DNA of 64,000 bases from the human T2T-CHM13v2.0 reference genome, Homo sapiens: assembly GCA_009914755.4 (NCBI GenBank), contig CP086569.2, positions 53,120,001 through 53,184,000 on the forward strand, read 5' to 3'. The notes below the pieces were generated by a model. It was not told where the DNA came from. It ran no database searches and worked only from the letters and a program-made list of their open reading frames with translations. Below are positions 1 to 64,000 of the stretch, piece after piece (position 1 is the stretch's first letter; each line of letters opens with the position of its first letter). Made by a program: the position numbers and the translations under genes.

Positions 1-1183
1 ATATATAAAATGTGACATATAATATATATTATATTTTATGACATATGTAACATGTATTATATATTATATATATTACGTTGTATGTATAATACCTATATTA
101 AATATATATTATATGACGATGTTATTAATTACATGTCACATATGTTATATATTATATATTTTACATGGAATATACCGGTTACATATAATATATACTATGT
201 TACCTATAATGTATAATTTATTACATGTAATATAATGAATGTCATATATTATATATAATTTATAATATACAATATGTGGAATGTGATATATATAACATAT
301 ATGATATATGATATAAAGTATATGATATATAACATACAATATATGATACGTAATATATATGGTATACAATATATATTTTATGATATGTATTCTATATGTT
401 TTATATTCTGTTATATATAACTATTTGAAATTATATATAACTGTATAATATTTTATGTAAATATGTAATATAATATATATAACTATATAATATATTATAT
501 ATAACTATATATTATGTTATATATACTTTTATAACATAATTTACATAAAATATCATAATATAATATATACTATATTATTTCATATTACATAATATATATT
601 ACATATCACCCAATATAACTAACATACATAATATTATAATATAGATTATATTATGTTATATTAAATATCATATATATCATGTATCATATATTCTATAATA
701 TATATTACACATTATATAATATGTATGTTGTCTATTATGTGATATATATAACTATATATATAATTATATTTTTATACATATAACTAGATAAATATGTAAT
801 TCTATATATTTTCATTTATAATATGTAGAATTATATAATCATATATAATTATTTATATTCTATAAAAAATTTTATCATTATATAAATTATAATATATAAA
901 AATTATAATATGTTCTACAAATATATATATTATATATCATATATGCTATAGTACCTTTGTTATATATCATAATACATATAAATGTGTATTATGTTATCTA
1001 TAATTATATAATTTCATATATAAGTTGTATAATATGTATCATATATTATATATGTTATGTAATATATATAGTATATATAAGATGACACAGGATAAATATT
1101 ATATACTATGACATATAAAATATATCAGGTTATATGTTACATATACGGCATAGCACATAACATGTAATATATATCATATATAA
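1..1183. repeat. Partial DYZ2-like unit: only the 3' part of its AT-rich segment is in the window.
   Basis: It aligns in phase with 7254..8142; ORFs 38..235 and 145..369 are identical to 7291..7488 and 7398..7622. Confidence 0.8.
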
Positions 1184-1477
1184 TTTTTTTTTAGACAGAA
1201 TCTTGTCCTGTTGCACAGGGTCGGGTACAATGGCGCCATGTTTGCTCACTGCAACTTCTGCCTCACGGGTCCAAGCGATTGTCCTCACTCAGCCTCCCAG
1301 GTAGCTGGGACTACACCACACTGGGACTACACCAGATGCCACCATGCCTAGCTAATTTTTTGGATTTTTAGTAGTGACAGCGTTTCACTGTATTGGCCAG
1401 GATGGTCTTGATCTCTTCACCTTGTGATCCCCTTGACTTGGCCTCCAAATTTGCTGGGATTACAGGCCTGAGCCAAG
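1184..1477 (-). mobile_element. Alu element, 5'-truncated, with the poly-A tail (poly-T on +) at 1184-1192. It is part of the satellite unit, not an independent insertion.
   Basis: Read on the minus strand, 'tttttttttagacagaatcttgtcctgttgcacagg...cagcctcccaggtagctgggactaca...ctaattttttggatttttagtagtgacagcgtttcactgtattggccaggatggtcttgatctc...tgctgggattacaggcctgagcc' is a clear match to Alu consensus. The first ~15 nt of the Alu 5' end are missing. Confidence 0.9.
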
Positions 1478-3601
1478 ATCCATATTTTTTAAATGAAAAA
1501 AAATTTCAAAGGTACTCTGCTTGGTACAATAATCAAATGTATAAACTGAGGAATAAAACATAACCATGAAACCTACTTATAACTGCATATGGAAAATACA
1601 GAGGATAATTTTTTAATTAACATATTTTGAAAGCCTTAACTAGTAATTTGAAGAGTTGGCATTTGAAAGGCCAGTATGAATATACCTTCAAAGCAGCAAC
1701 ACATGTTCCCCATGAGAAAAAGCAAACACAGGGAAAATAAAAACACAAAGGTTCAATCTCTTCTGACCTTTGAAAGACACAGCACAGACAGTGGTCCTTA
1801 GGACGAAGAGCAGGAGACCCCTAATTCCGTCACCATGGCGATAGGGCATAAACATTGCTGGGTGAGGGCACAATCCACATTGTGAGGTCCAACTGCTGCC
1901 AGGAAGACAGGAGTGCTTTTACATAGACCGAAAGGTCATTGAAGGCTCAGAGTTTTGTTTCAAGAACTGAATCCCAAGCCCACAGGTTATTAGGCTGCGC
2001 TTCTTAAAACGAGTTATGAGATGGGAAAAAGGGCACCCACAAACATACGTATACATTATGTATATAATAATATACAGTATCATATATATAATATATATAA
2101 CCTATGTATAATATTGTTTTACATCCTGCATCTTATGTTATATATATTGTATAAAATATAATAATTGATAATATATGTTTTATAATTATACAATATGACA
2201 TATAGTATATATTATAATTTATGACATATATAATATATGTTATATGTCATATATAGAATATATTATACGGTTAATATACGTATTAAATATAAATTATACA
2301 TTATATATATTATACATAATATATCTGTTATATATAATACCCATTATGCATAATATATATATTATGTCTATGTTATATATAGTATAAAACAACATATAAT
2401 AATATATAATTGTATATATAAAATGCGACATATAATATATATTATATTTTATAACATATGTAATATATATTATATATTATATATAATACGTTGTATGTAT
2501 AATACCTATATTAAATATATATTATATGACTATGTTATTAATTACATGTCACATGTGTTATATATTATATATTTTACATAGAATATACCGGTTACATACA
2601 ATATATACTATGTTACCTATAATGTATAATTTATTACATGTAAAATAAAGAATGCAATATATTATGTATAATTTATAATATACAATATGTGGAATGTGAT
2701 ATATATAACATATAATATATGATATATGATATACAGTATATGATATATAACATACAATATATGATTCCTAATATATATGGTATACAATATATATTTTATG
2801 ATATGTATTCTATATGTTTTATATTCTGTTATATATAACTATTTGAAATTATAAATAACTGTATAATATTTTATGTAAATATGTAATATAATATATATAA
2901 CTATATAATATATTATATATAACTATATATTATGTTATATATACTTTTATAACATAATTTACATAAAATATCATAATATAATATATATTATATTATTTCA
3001 TATTACATAATATATATTACATATCACCCAATATAACTAACATACATAATATTATAATATAGATTATATTGTGTTATATTAAATATCATATATATCATGT
3101 ATCATATATTCTATAATATATATTACACATTATATAGTATGTATGTTGTCTATTATGTGATATATATAACTATATATATAATTATATTTTTATACATATA
3201 ACTAGATAAACATGTAATTCTACATATTTTCATTTATAATATGTAGAATTATATAATCATATATAATTATTTATATTCTATAAAAAATTTTATCATTATA
3301 TAAATTATAATATATAAAAATTATAATATGTACTACAAATATATATATTATATACCATATATGATATAGTACCTTTGTTATATTTCATAATACATATAAA
3401 TGTGTATTATGTTATCTATAATTATATAATTTCATATATAAGATGTATAATATGTATCATATATTATATATGTTATGTAATATATATAGTATATATAAGA
3501 TGACACAGGATAAATATTATATACTATGACATATAAAATATATGAGGTTATATGTTACATATAAGGCATAGCACATAACATGTAATATATATCATATATA
3601 A
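1184..3601. repeat. DYZ2-like unit, 2418 bp (Alu, spacer, AT-rich).
   Basis: It is bounded by the Alu poly-T starts at 1184 and 3602. Confidence 0.85.
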
Positions 3602-62500: not shown

Positions 62501-63053
62501 ACTCGACTGGTACGGACTCCAATGGAATGGAATCGAATGGAAGGGAATCGAACGGAATGGACTCGAAGGGAAAAGACTGCAATGGAAAGGTCTCCAATGG
62601 AATGGAAATTAATGGAATGGAATGGAATCGAATGAAATGGAGTCAAAAGGAATGGAATCGAATGGCAAGAAATCGAATGTAATGGAATCGCAAGGAATGG
62701 ATGTGAACGGAACGGAATGGAATGGAATCCAAAGGAATGGAATAGAATGGAATGGAATCGAATGGAAAGGACTCGAATGGAAATCACTCGAATAGAATGC
62801 AATTTAATAAAATAGGATCAAATGTAATGGAATGGAATGGAAAGGAATCGAAACGAAAGGAATGGAGACAGATGGAATGGAATGGAACAGAGAGCAATGG
62901 TATAGAATGGAATGGAATCATCTGGAATGGAATTGAATGGAATGGAATAATATGAAATTGAAAGGAATGGAATGGAATGCCCTTGAATTAAATGGACTGG
63001 AATGGAATGGACTCGAACGGAGTGGAATGGAAAGTGTTGAAATAGAATGGAAT
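59515..63053. repeat. DYZ1-like unit 14, 3539 bp.
   Basis: Anchor spacing. Confidence 0.85.
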
Positions 63054-64000
63054 GGACTCGTTTGGAATGGTCTAGTATGCAATGCAATCGACTGGCAGGG
63101 AATCAAAAGGAATGTAATCGAATGGATTGGACTGGAATGCAATGGACTCGAATAGATTGGAAACGGAAAGCAAAGGAATGGAATGGAATAGTATGGAATG
63201 CAATGGAAAGGAATGGAGTGGAATAGACTAGAGTGGAATGGAATGGACTCGAAAGCAATGGACTGGAATGGAACTTTCTTGAATGGACTGGAATCAAACG
63301 GAATGGAATGCAATGCAATCAAATGGCATGGAATAAAATAGAATGAAAGAGAATGAAATGGAATTGAATCGAATGGAATCGAATGGATTGGAAAGGAATA
63401 GAATGGAATGGAATGGAATTGACTCAAATGGAATGGACTAGAATGGAATGGATTCGAATGGAAGGCAAAGGAATGGAATCTATTGGAATGGACTGTAATG
63501 GAATGGAATGGAAGGGATTGGAATGGACTCGAATGGAATGGACTGCAATAGAAAGGATTCGAATGGAATGAAAAAGAATTGAATGGAATAGAACAGAATG
63601 GAATCAAATCGAATGAAATGGAATGGAATAGAAAGGAATGGAATGAAATGGAATGGAAAGGATTCGAATGGAATGCAATCGAATGGAATGCAATCGAATG
63701 GAATGGAATCGAACGGAATGGAATAAAATGGAAGAAAACTGGCAAGAAATGGAATCGAAATGAACGGAGTGTTATGGAACGGACTCAAAAGGAATTGAAT
63801 GTAATAGAATGGAGTGGAGTGGACTCGAATATAATGGACTGGAATGGAATGAAATCACATGGAATGGGAACGAATGGAATGGAATGGAAAGGAATGGAAT
63901 CGAATGGAAAGGAATCGAATGGAAGGGAATGAAATTGAATCAACAGGAATGGAAGGGAGTAGAATAGACGGTAATGGAATGGACTCGAATAGAATGGACA
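63054..64000. repeat. DYZ1-like unit 15, partial, running off the window end.
   Basis: The anchor motif is at 63054. Confidence 0.8.

What the first reader, a model, noticed from the sequence alone, without database searches (positions are those of the whole stretch)
1..64000. The window is a human Yq12-type DYZ2 to DYZ1 satellite transition, not a gene-bearing or prokaryotic locus
What the sequence shows directly is two tandem arrays meeting at one point. The first has ~2.42-kb AT-rich, Alu-containing units (1-13882). The second has ~3.55-kb (GGAAT)n-derived units (13883-64000).

From established knowledge, this pairing of a 2.4-kb HSat1B unit with an embedded Alu and a 3.56-kb HSat3 HaeIII repeat is the classical description of DYZ2 and DYZ1. 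In complete Y assemblies those two families alternate in many blocks across Yq12. HSat3 and HSat1B also occur on autosomes such as 9q12 and the acrocentric short arms, but there they do not have these unit lengths.

No credible CDS, RNA gene, CRISPR array or defence or metabolic system is present. The hint of an undescribed system is not supported by the sequence.
Basis: partly seen in the sequence, partly recalled or inferred. Interest (0 to 1): 0.5.

Follow-up and report, generated by a model that had tools for sequence, protein, structure and literature searches.

The report
Human Y-chromosome DYZ2/DYZ1 satellite junction
The whole 64-kb window is ordinary, already well-described human Y-chromosome long-arm heterochromatin, where an array of the AT-rich, Alu-containing DYZ2 repeat meets an array of the GGAAT-based DYZ1 repeat, with no genes or undescribed system in it.

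Summary
Positions 1-13881 are a tandem array of 2,418-2,420-bp units. Each unit has an 86% AT segment, an antisense 5'-truncated Alu about 23% diverged, and a 574-bp GC-richer segment. This matches the published DYZ2/HSat1B description. Positions 13881-64000 are a tandem array of about 3.55-kb GGAAT-derived units with one conserved HaeIII site each.

A sequenced male-derived DYZ1 unit aligns full-length and in register at 95.6-97.7%. There are only 35-47 substitutions per 3,564 bp; the rest is indels. Out of register the alignment reaches only about 71%. Of 14 published HSat2/3 subfamily 24-mers, only the HSat3A6 (chrY) one occurs. Published DYZ1 primers and a Yq-specific 40-nt satellite I probe target each map once per unit. 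GC and CpG densities equal the published Yq12 values.

The same junction occurs at 99.67% in an independent public contig, so it is not a misassembly. All 320 tiles of 200 bp match independent DYZ1 or DYZ2 copies. There are no RNA genes, and the only long ORFs are pentamer-repeat artefacts.

Alignment to a human reference genome could not be run here. Verdict: already known, low interest.

The parts
1..13881 (.). DYZ2 (HSat1B) tandem array, cut by the left end of the window. It holds a partial unit at 1-1190, units at 1191-3608, 3609-6028, 6029-9732 (about 3,705 bp) and 9733-12121 (about 2,389 bp), and a truncated last unit at 12122-13881.
   Evidence: Periods of 2,420/2,418 bp. Unit map and identities: 96-98% for distal units and 88-92% for the three segments nearest the junction. 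GC 22.7% and one CpG per 149 bp. Independent DYZ2 contigs match at 99.0-99.4% over 2.4-2.5 kb.
1185..1475 (-). Alu subunit of the DYZ2 unit: antisense on the + strand, 5'-truncated by 12 nt, about 77% identical to AluY. The other copies are at 3603-3893, 6023-6313, 9727-10017 and 12116-12406.
   Evidence: Local alignment to an AluY consensus that I wrote from memory: AluY positions 13-288, 76-78% identity. Four HaeIII sites per unit cluster in and just after the Alu and leave 2,144-2,146-bp fragments.
1476..2049 (.). GC-richer segment of the DYZ2 unit (61% AT), the part RepeatMasker labels HSATI. It ends at the ACATACG seam (2043-2049). The 40-nt male-specific satellite I probe target spans the boundary between the Alu and this segment (1451-1490).
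   Evidence: AT content by segment, and ACATACG at 2043, 4461, 6881, 8168 and 10585. The probe target is exact at 1451, 3869 and 6289, has 1 mismatch at 9993 and 2 mismatches at 12382.
2050..3602 (.). AT-rich segment of the DYZ2 unit (86% AT).
   Evidence: The published description is '>85% AT'.
8141..9732 (.). Second, partially duplicated AT-rich segment, which makes unit 6029-9732 about 3,705 bp long. The array also switches here from the homogeneous DYZ2 variant (96-98% identity) to the diverged variant near the junction (88-92%).
   Evidence: Window 6029-8142 aligns to unit coordinates 1-2121 at 96.3%. Window 8141-9734 then aligns to unit coordinates 826-2420 at 91.8%. An extra seam motif lies at 8168.
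13881..13881 (.). The DYZ2/DYZ1 breakpoint: a truncated DYZ2 unit joined to a truncated DYZ1 unit. DYZ2 is cut in its AT-rich part about 1,760 bp after the start of the Alu poly-T. DYZ1 starts at canonical coordinate about 2,103. The two share 1 nt of microhomology (A).
   Evidence: Three-way comparison of the window with intact DYZ2 and DYZ1 units. Tile mapping to the canonical DYZ1 unit. The identical junction occurs in independent contig PKQM01000722.1, at 99.67% over 1,842 bp.
13881..18746 (-). Rearranged junction-proximal DYZ1 copies. Window 13881 to about 15520 covers canonical coordinates 2103 down to about 372, with deletions of about 118 and 25 bp. This is joined, within the overlap 15430-15520, to canonical coordinate about 3339, which then runs down to 1 at window 18746. 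About 600 bp containing the HaeIII site is missing.
   Evidence: 200-bp tile mapping to the MZT1a DYZ1 unit. There is no HaeIII site between 12601 and 18745.
18747..61600 (-). Twelve complete HaeIII-bounded DYZ1 (HSat3A6) units. The canonical TTCCA orientation is on the - strand. Unit lengths in order are 3559, 3579, 3515, 3514, 3549, 3514, 3549, 3549, 3534, 3544, 3889 and 3559 bp.
   Evidence: Conserved StuI/HaeIII sites. In-register alignments to the sequenced DYZ1 unit at 95.6-97.7% for eleven units and 93.8% for the 3,889-bp unit, against about 71% out of register. Primer sites. HSat3A6 24-mer. Pairwise unit matrix.
29400..43525 (-). A recent two-unit duplication of 7,063 bp: 29400-36462 is nearly identical to 36463-43525. 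The corresponding units differ by 3 and 8 substitutions.
   Evidence: Pairwise matrix: units 4 and 6 are 99.92% identical, and units 5 and 7 are 99.78%. A 7,063-bp k-mer spacing peak is present.
57300..57690 (-). Internal tandem duplication of canonical DYZ1 coordinates about 362-750. It makes unit 54153-58041 3,889 bp long.
   Evidence: 100-bp tile mapping.
61601..64000 (-). Partial DYZ1 unit, cut by the right end of the window.
   Evidence: Canonical coordinates 1170-3564 align at 95.9%.

Best explanation
The window is a piece of the human Y-chromosome long-arm heterochromatin (Yq12). It spans one boundary between a DYZ2 (HSat1B) block and a DYZ1 (HSat3 subfamily A6) block.

It encodes no protein or structured RNA. 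It is constitutive, highly methylated satellite DNA. Its structure is produced and maintained by unequal sister-chromatid exchange, replication slippage and intrachromosomal conversion within a non-recombining chromosome.

The window shows the direct traces of these processes:
- DYZ1 unit lengths differ by multiples of 5 nt, which is pentamer-phase slippage.
- There is a nearly identical 7-kb two-unit duplication.
- There are intra-unit duplications and deletions.
- Units are homogenised away from the boundary and older and more diverged right at it.

The boundary itself is a simple join of a truncated DYZ2 unit to a truncated DYZ1 unit with 1 nt of microhomology.

The anatomy and the identity are shown. 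The exchange mechanism is inferred from the pattern and from published Yq12 analyses. Any cellular role is literature-based inference and was not tested here. Examples are heterochromatin mass, or a sink for TEAD, NFAT or HSF1-type factors at the GGAATG cores, which occur once per 22 bp in the DYZ1 part.
For: DYZ1:
- Period of about 3.55 kb with one conserved HaeIII/StuI site per unit.
- A sequenced male-derived 3,564-bp DYZ1 unit (MZT1a, supplement of PMC3925983) aligns in register at 95.6-97.7%, with 35-47 substitutions. Out of register it reaches about 71%.
- Seven primers of PMC3925983 Table 5 map once per unit at the expected coordinates and orientation. The eighth maps after correction of a one-base misprint.
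- Of 14 subfamily 24-mers from Altemose 2014 (PMC4022460), only HSat3A6 is present, 15 times.

DYZ2:
- Modal unit of 2,420 bp, equal to the consensus length in Hallast et al..
- Three parts: 86% AT, a 5'-truncated Alu about 23% diverged, and a 61% AT HSATI part. This matches Rhie et al. and Hallast et al..
- The ACATACG seam.
- HaeIII fragments of 2,144-2,146 bp.
- The Yq-specific 40-nt satellite I probe target occurs once per unit.
- Independent DYZ2 contigs match at 99.0-99.4%.

Both arrays:
- GC is 22.7% and 38.7%, and CpG density is 1/149 and 1/34 bp. Published values are 24% and 38%, and 1/150 and 1/35.
- Units are more diverged at the edges of both arrays, as published.
- The junction is confirmed in an independent contig.
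- All 320 tiles are accounted for.
- GGAATG density is one per 22 bp in the DYZ1 part.
Against: No alignment to a human reference (T2T-CHM13v2.0 chrY) or Dfam/RepeatMasker run was possible. The chromosomal assignment therefore rests on published diagnostic sequences and not on direct mapping.

Altemose 2014 lists HSat3A6 as 'Y, 7', so a minor non-Y locus of this subfamily exists. HSat1B also occurs on acrocentric short arms and chr10.

The host of the independent junction contig PKQM01000722.1 could not be identified.

The AluY consensus, the classic 154-bp primer pair and the '2.1-kb HaeIII band' were recalled from memory.
Confidence: 0.96

Rival explanations
1. The window comes from a human autosomal site where HSat1B abuts HSat3 (an acrocentric short arm, chr10, or the minor chr7 HSat3A6 locus), not from Yq12.
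For: Rhie et al. state that HSat1B also lies on acrocentric short arms and chr10, and that HSat3 is present there too. Altemose 2014 Table 1 lists HSat3A6 as 'Y, 7'.
Against: The diagnostic 24-mers of the acrocentric HSat3 subfamilies (A1, A2, A4, A5, B2-B5) are all absent, and only the A6 24-mer is present. At least 50 kb of in-register 3.56-kb DYZ1 higher-order units are about 99% identical at substitution level to a male-derived clone. Published Yq12 values for GC, CpG, unit length and edge divergence are reproduced. The 40-nt probe target labelled only Yq in situ.
Confidence: 0.02
2. The window comes from a non-human great ape sex chromosome that carries related satellites.
For: Ape Y chromosomes are rich in satellites, for example the expansion of SAR/HSat1A on the gorilla Y. 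About 99% identity is not by itself incompatible with a very close relative.
Against: The expanded ape satellite named is HSat1A/SAR, not the composite 2.4-kb HSat1B unit. The window matches human male-derived DYZ1, a probe validated on human Yq, and the exact 2,420-bp human DYZ2 consensus length with its seam motif. Eighteen contaminant contigs, most plausibly from human handlers, are 96-99.4% identical. From my own recollection, not tested here, large DYZ1/DYZ2 Yq blocks are a human feature.
Confidence: 0.01
3. The junction at 13881 is an assembly chimera that joins two unrelated satellite reads.
For: Satellite arrays are prone to misassembly. The units next to the junction are unusual: they are diverged and carry deletions.
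Against: An independent public contig (PKQM01000722.1) spans the same breakpoint. It is 99.67% identical over 1,842 bp, including the diverged DYZ2 variant specific to this junction, which is at most 90.7% identical to the other DYZ2 units. Gradual divergence toward the edge on both sides is the published natural pattern.
Confidence: 0.01
4. The window carries a gene, an RNA gene or a prokaryotic or mobile-element system hidden among the repeats.
For: There are 82 ORFs of at least 120 aa, up to 310 aa. DYZ2 fragments sit in 18 records labelled as bacterial genomes.
Against: All the ORFs lie in the pentamer array, read as periodic IPFHS or GMEWN-type peptides, and overlap each other in several frames on both strands. 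Rfam at gathering threshold finds 0 families and ARAGORN finds 0 tRNAs. Every 200-bp tile is DYZ1 or DYZ2. There are no plasmid or phage matches. The bacterial records are small stand-alone contigs, or a fragment bracketed by N gaps, which means human contamination as described by Rhie et al..
Confidence: 0.005

Closest known systems
DYZ1 (HSat3 subfamily A6), the male-specific 3.56-kb HaeIII repeat of Yq12
   Same: Positions 13881-64000 share these features with DYZ1:
- A unit length of 3,514-3,579 bp.
- One conserved HaeIII site per unit.
- Derivation from the TTCCA pentamer, at about 225 copies per 3.56 kb. The published range is 184-235.
- In-register identity of 95.6-97.7% to a sequenced unit.
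- The HSat3A6 diagnostic 24-mer.
- The published primer map.
   Different: Nothing essential differs. The local variants are:
- A rearranged first copy that lacks the HaeIII site.
- One 3,889-bp unit.
- A subset of units with a second HaeIII and a second EcoRI site.
- Two edge units only 95-96.5% identical to the inner ones.
DYZ2 (HSat1B), the male-specific 2.4-2.5-kb satellite I unit with one Alu per repeat (Frommer et al. 1984; Rhie et al. 2023; Hallast et al. 2023)
   Same: Positions 1-13881 share these features with DYZ2:
- A modal unit of 2,420 bp.
- The AT-rich, 5'-truncated diverged Alu and HSATI segments.
- The ACATACG seam.
- HaeIII fragments of about 2.14 kb.
- The 40-nt Yq-specific probe target.
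- GC near 23% and one CpG per about 150 bp.
   Different: The three unit segments nearest the junction are only 88-92% identical to the homogeneous type. One unit is about 3,705 bp because of a partial duplication, and one is about 2,389 bp.
Acrocentric short-arm HSat1B and HSat3 (A1, A2, A4 and B subfamilies) and 9q12 HSat3B5
   Same: They belong to the same two satellite super-families. HSat1B there has the same composite Alu-containing design, according to Rhie et al.
   Different: Their subfamily-diagnostic 24-mers are absent from the window. They are not organised as the 3.56-kb DYZ1 higher-order unit.

Membership tests
DYZ1 / HSat3A6 | Tandem higher-order unit of about 3.56 kb built from diverged CATTC/TTCCA pentamers | tested here: met
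   Modal period of 3,549 bp. Unit lengths are 3,514-3,579 bp, plus one of 3,889 bp. There are 225 TTCCA copies per 3.56 kb, against 184-235 in PMC3925983 Table 1.
DYZ1 / HSat3A6 | HaeIII cuts once per unit, giving the classical 3.4-3.56-kb male band | tested here: met
   Thirteen conserved HaeIII/StuI sites, spaced 3,514-3,889 bp apart. Three units carry one extra site.
DYZ1 / HSat3A6 | Sequence identity, in register, to a sequenced DYZ1 unit from male DNA | tested here: met
   The MZT1a unit (3,564 bp) aligns to each HaeIII-bounded unit at 95.6-97.7%, or 93.8% for the 3,889-bp unit. Out-of-register alignments reach about 71%.
DYZ1 / HSat3A6 | Subfamily-specific k-mer content (Altemose 2014) | tested here: met
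   The HSat3A6 24-mer occurs 15 times. The 13 other HSat2/3 subfamily 24-mers occur 0 times. Only the single example 24-mer per subfamily printed in Table 1 was available, not the full set of 2,696.
DYZ1 / HSat3A6 | Male-specific location on the Y chromosome | not testable with these tools
   No human reference genome or sexed read sets are available here. The location is inferred from the diagnostic sequences.
DYZ2 / HSat1B | Tandem unit of about 2.4-2.5 kb (2,420-bp consensus) | tested here: met
   The top k-mer spacings are 2,420 and 2,418 bp. Hallast et al. give a 2,420-bp consensus.
DYZ2 / HSat1B | Three-part unit: an ancient 5'-truncated AluY about 20% diverged, a segment more than 85% AT, and a GC-richer HSATI segment | tested here: met
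   The Alu covers AluY positions 13-288 at 76-78% identity. The AluY consensus was written from memory. The other segments are 86.0% AT and 60.8% AT.
DYZ2 / HSat1B | ACATACG heptamer at the seam between HSATI and the AT-rich segment (Hallast et al.) | tested here: met
   Present at the seam in units at 2043, 4461, 6881 and 10585, and in the duplicated seam at 8168. It is absent from the last unit.
DYZ2 / HSat1B | Male-specific satellite I sequence of Frommer et al. 1984, tested as the 40-nt padlock target that labels only Yq | tested here: met
   Once per unit: exact in three units, with 1 and 2 mismatches in the two units nearest the junction.
Yq12 heterochromatin organisation | DYZ1 and DYZ2 arrays directly abut and alternate, and units are more diverged at array edges | tested here: met
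   There is one direct junction at 13881. DYZ2 identity falls from 96-98% to 88-92% toward the junction. The two DYZ1 edge units are 95-96.5% identical to the others, against 98-99.9% among inner units. Only one boundary is visible, so alternation itself is not seen.
Yq12 heterochromatin organisation | More than 98% identity to a position in a complete human Y assembly | not testable with these tools
   No human assembly is searchable here.
Gene-bearing or prokaryotic or mobile-element locus | A credible protein-coding gene, RNA gene, CRISPR array or similarity to plasmid or phage records | tested here: not met
   The only long ORFs are pentamer-periodic, multi-frame artefacts. Rfam finds 0 and tRNA search finds 0. 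The plasmid and phage searches gave no match. All tiles are satellite.

The most novel reading that the evidence does not exclude
This exact breakpoint, together with its flanking degenerate units, might be shared by many or all DYZ2-to-DYZ1 boundaries in Yq12. The breakpoint joins DYZ2 cut about 1,760 bp after the start of its Alu to DYZ1 at canonical coordinate about 2,103, with 1 nt of microhomology. If it is widely shared, the whole 30-40-Mb block would descend from one ancestral DYZ2-DYZ1 'super-unit' amplified at block level, and would not come from many independent insertions.

The independent contig with the same junction at 99.67% is compatible with this. It is equally compatible with being the same locus in another man.
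Probability: 0.25. Interest if true: 0.2.

Novelty: already known. Interest (0 to 1): 0.05.

Why it matters
For discovery it matters little. DYZ1, DYZ2 and their alternation in Yq12 have been known since the 1970s-80s, and were resolved at base level in 2023 (Rhie et al.; Hallast et al.).

Its practical value is as a clean negative. The window can be removed from any search for new genes or systems.

It also illustrates a known hazard. The same Y satellites contaminate assemblies labelled as bacterial, including a 5.16-Mb RefSeq scaffold, and they generate long spurious ORFs that gene callers may turn into 'hypothetical proteins'.

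Tried and rejected
- I searched papers for the classic 154-bp DYZ1 primer as one string and found no paper. The pair matches the window exactly and lies 154 bp apart, but I can cite it only from memory. 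I relied on the primers of PMC3925983 instead.
- I looked for DYZ1 primers in PMC9187067 and PMC12561931. No sequences are given in the main text.
- I looked for HSat1B FISH primers in the T2T-Y preprint. None are printed.
- I tried to identify the source of PKQM01000722.1 through the literature and got no hit.
- I tried to read Frommer et al. 1984 (PMC318713). It is not held.
- The junction 30-mer was not found in genome contigs.
- Rfam at gathering threshold did not flag the Alu as SRP-related. This is unsurprising at about 23% divergence with truncation.
- I ran no further search on the pentamer-repeat ORFs, because their periodic, multi-frame nature already explains them.
- The ape sex-chromosome paper does not mention HSat1B, DYZ1 or HSat3 in its main text. 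Species specificity therefore rests on the human-derived references and on my own recollection.

Full report
**Observation**

The window splits sharply into two compositional domains. Up to about 13.9 kb the GC content is 18-28% with no strand skew. After that it is 37-40% GC with a constant GC skew of about +0.55.

Spacing of 20-mers peaks at 2,420 and 2,418 bp in the first part and at 3,549 bp in the second. The second part also has minor peaks at 3,514, 3,559 and 3,889 bp. TRF sees the second part as one continuous array derived from a 5-nt motif over 13906-63998.

Self-BLAST places DYZ2-type unit starts at 1191, 3609, 6029, 9733 and 12122. It places the 3.55-kb units from about 16.4 kb to the end of the window.

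**The GGAAT array is DYZ1 (HSat3A6)**

- *Restriction sites.* HaeIII, the enzyme that classically defines DYZ1, cuts once per unit at a conserved AGGCCT. There are 13 such sites, spaced 3,514-3,889 bp apart. Three units have one extra site.
- *Published primers.* PMC3925983 Table 5 lists eight primers with coordinates in the canonical 3,564-bp HaeIII unit. Seven map once per unit on the expected strand and at the expected distance from the HaeIII site. The eighth maps 13 times once a G missing from the printed sequence is restored.
- *Direct alignment.* I transcribed a complete sequenced unit from male blood DNA (MZT1a, given as GenBank KF941192) from that paper's supplement. It aligns full-length, and in register with the window's HaeIII-bounded units, at 95.6-97.7%, or 93.8% for the 3,889-bp unit. 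There are only 35-47 substitutions per unit, and the rest are indels. Any out-of-register alignment falls to about 71%. This shows that the higher-order unit matches, and not merely the pentamer.
- *Subfamily k-mers.* Altemose et al. 2014 print one diagnostic 24-mer for each of 14 HSat2/3 subfamilies. Only the HSat3A6 (chrY) 24-mer occurs, 15 times. The other 13 occur zero times.

**The AT-rich array is DYZ2 (HSat1B)**

Each unit has three parts:

- An antisense Alu lacking its first 12 nt, 76-78% identical to AluY. I wrote the AluY consensus from memory.
- A 574-bp segment of 61% AT.
- A 1.55-kb segment of 86% AT.

[quoted passage not shown] Hallast et al. give a consensus of exactly 2,420 bp, describe a 5'-truncated Alu followed by HSATI, and report an ACATACG heptamer at the seam between HSATI and the AT-rich region.

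That heptamer sits at the seam in the window's units. HaeIII sites cluster in and next to the Alu and leave 2,144-2,146-bp fragments. This fits the classical 2.1-kb male HaeIII band, which I recall from memory.

A 40-nt padlock-probe target was taken from Frommer et al. 1984, the original description of the male-specific 2.47-kb satellite I repeat. It was shown to label only Yq. It occurs once per unit, spanning the boundary between the Alu and HSATI. It is exact in three units and has 1 and 2 mismatches in the two units nearest the junction.

A conserved DYZ2 29-mer retrieved 18 contigs from nominally bacterial assemblies. Those contigs are independent copies of the repeat. The three that span a whole unit match the window's distal units over 2.4-2.5 kb at 99.0-99.4%.

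**Features of both arrays**

| Feature | Window, DYZ2 part | Window, DYZ1 part | Hallast et al., DYZ2 | Hallast et al., DYZ1 |
|---|---|---|---|---|
| GC content | 22.7% | 38.7% | 24% | 38% |
| CpG density | 1 per 149 bp | 1 per 34 bp | 1 per 150 bp | 1 per 35 bp |

The window values are and the published values.

Both papers report more diverged units at array edges, and the window shows this on both sides:

- DYZ2 identity to a distal unit falls from 96-98% to 88-92% for the three segments nearest the junction.
- The two DYZ1 units nearest the junction are 95-96.5% identical to the others, while the inner units are 98-99.9% identical to one another.

**The junction**

DYZ2 homology runs through A13881, and DYZ1 homology starts at the same A (ATGGACTC...). 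The join therefore has 1 nt of microhomology. The DYZ2 unit is cut in its AT-rich part. The DYZ1 unit is cut at canonical coordinate about 2,103.

The first DYZ1 copy has deletions of about 118 and 25 bp. It has also lost about 600 bp around its HaeIII site.

An exact search for the junction 30-mer found one public metagenome contig, PKQM01000722.1. That contig aligns end to end with window 12722-14563 at 99.67%. Its DYZ2 part is at most 90.7% identical to the other DYZ2 units in the window. The junction therefore exists in independent data and is not an assembly chimera.

**Traces of how the arrays change**

- Eleven of twelve DYZ1 unit lengths differ from one another by multiples of 5 nt.
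- Units 29400-36462 and 36463-43525 form a two-unit, 7,063-bp duplication that differs by 3 and 8 substitutions.
- One DYZ1 unit contains an internal duplication of canonical coordinates about 362-750.
- One DYZ2 unit contains a duplication of about 1.29 kb of its AT-rich part. At that point the array switches from the homogeneous variant to the diverged variant.

These are the expected products of slippage and unequal exchange. Rhie et al. infer the same processes for Yq12.

**Nothing else is present**

- All 320 tiles of 200 bp match an independent DYZ2 or DYZ1 reference. There are 69 DYZ2 tiles and 251 DYZ1 tiles, with median identities of 97.5% and 98.5%.
- Rfam at gathering thresholds finds nothing, and ARAGORN finds no tRNA.
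- The 82 ORFs of at least 120 aa all lie in the pentamer array, read as IPFHS or GMEWN-type periodic peptides, and overlap each other in several frames. They are artefacts of a repeat that is poor in stop codons.
- One DYZ2 unit searched against plasmids and one DYZ1 unit searched against phages gave no match.

**Function**

No product is encoded. The best-supported account is constitutive heterochromatin that evolves by unequal exchange.

The DYZ1 part carries a TEAD-core GGAATG once per 22 bp, against once per 2,314 bp in DYZ2. A recent preprint shows TEAD and other factors binding HSat3 arrays, and notes that HSat3A6 is a diverged, Y-specific subfamily. Whether Yq12 acts as a factor sink is not addressed by this window.

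**Limits**

- I could not align to a human or ape reference, or run RepeatMasker.
- HSat1B also exists on acrocentric arms and chr10, and HSat3A6 has a minor chr7 locus. The Y assignment therefore rests on the combination of at least 50 kb of canonical DYZ1 units physically joined to DYZ2, and not on either array alone.

**Verdict**

The feature is already known and of low interest.

Noticed in passing
L007 5897-6920 (NZ_HF570958.1, Nostocoides japonicum T1-X7, 5.16-Mb scaffold): A 1,024-bp human DYZ2 fragment, 97.7% identical to window 3469-4492, sits inside a RefSeq bacterial scaffold. It is bracketed exactly by 100-N gaps, and the rest of the locus is 69% GC. A contaminant contig appears to have been scaffolded into a bacterial genome.
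   Followed up: partly
L002-L006 and L008-L019 (17 assemblies labelled as bacteria or MAGs, e.g. Mycobacterium sp. LZSC01000004.1, Bifidobacterium tibiigranuli NZ_QLZA01000025.1, several JCM Streptomyces): Small contigs of 0.6-2.5 kb in these assemblies consist wholly or largely of human DYZ2, at 96-99.4% identity to the window. This is the contamination of microbial databases by Y satellites reported by Rhie et al..
   Followed up: partly
L001 (PKQM01000722.1, 1,841 bp) = window 12722-14563: A metagenome contig carries the same DYZ2/DYZ1 junction at 99.67%. I could not find the source sample. It is either the same locus in another man or a paralogous block boundary.
   Followed up: partly
window 26703, 30217, 37280 (HaeIII); 26580, 30094, 37157, 51303, 54862, 58751, 62295 (EcoRI): A subset of DYZ1 units carries a second HaeIII site, giving fragments of about 820 and 2,695 bp, and/or a second EcoRI site. 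These mark local unit variants that track the duplication pattern.
   Followed up: partly
window 18740-18762 and each later HaeIII site: Primer 'DYZ1 H' in PMC3925983 Table 5, as printed, lacks one G inside the HaeIII site (GGACAGCCTGG instead of GGACAGGCCTGG). The printed form has 0 matches and the corrected form has 13.
   Followed up: yes
window 1451-1490 and the equivalent position in each DYZ2 unit: PMC2212658 labels its male-specific satellite I target 'DYZ1'. The 40-mer actually lies at the Alu/HSATI boundary of the 2.4-kb unit, which by current nomenclature is DYZ2.
   Followed up: yes
window 14000-64000, both strands: The pentamer array yields 82 ORFs of 120-310 aa with ATG, GTG or TTG starts. 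Automated gene callers could report these as repeated 'hypothetical proteins'. I did not check whether such proteins exist in public protein databases.
   Followed up: no
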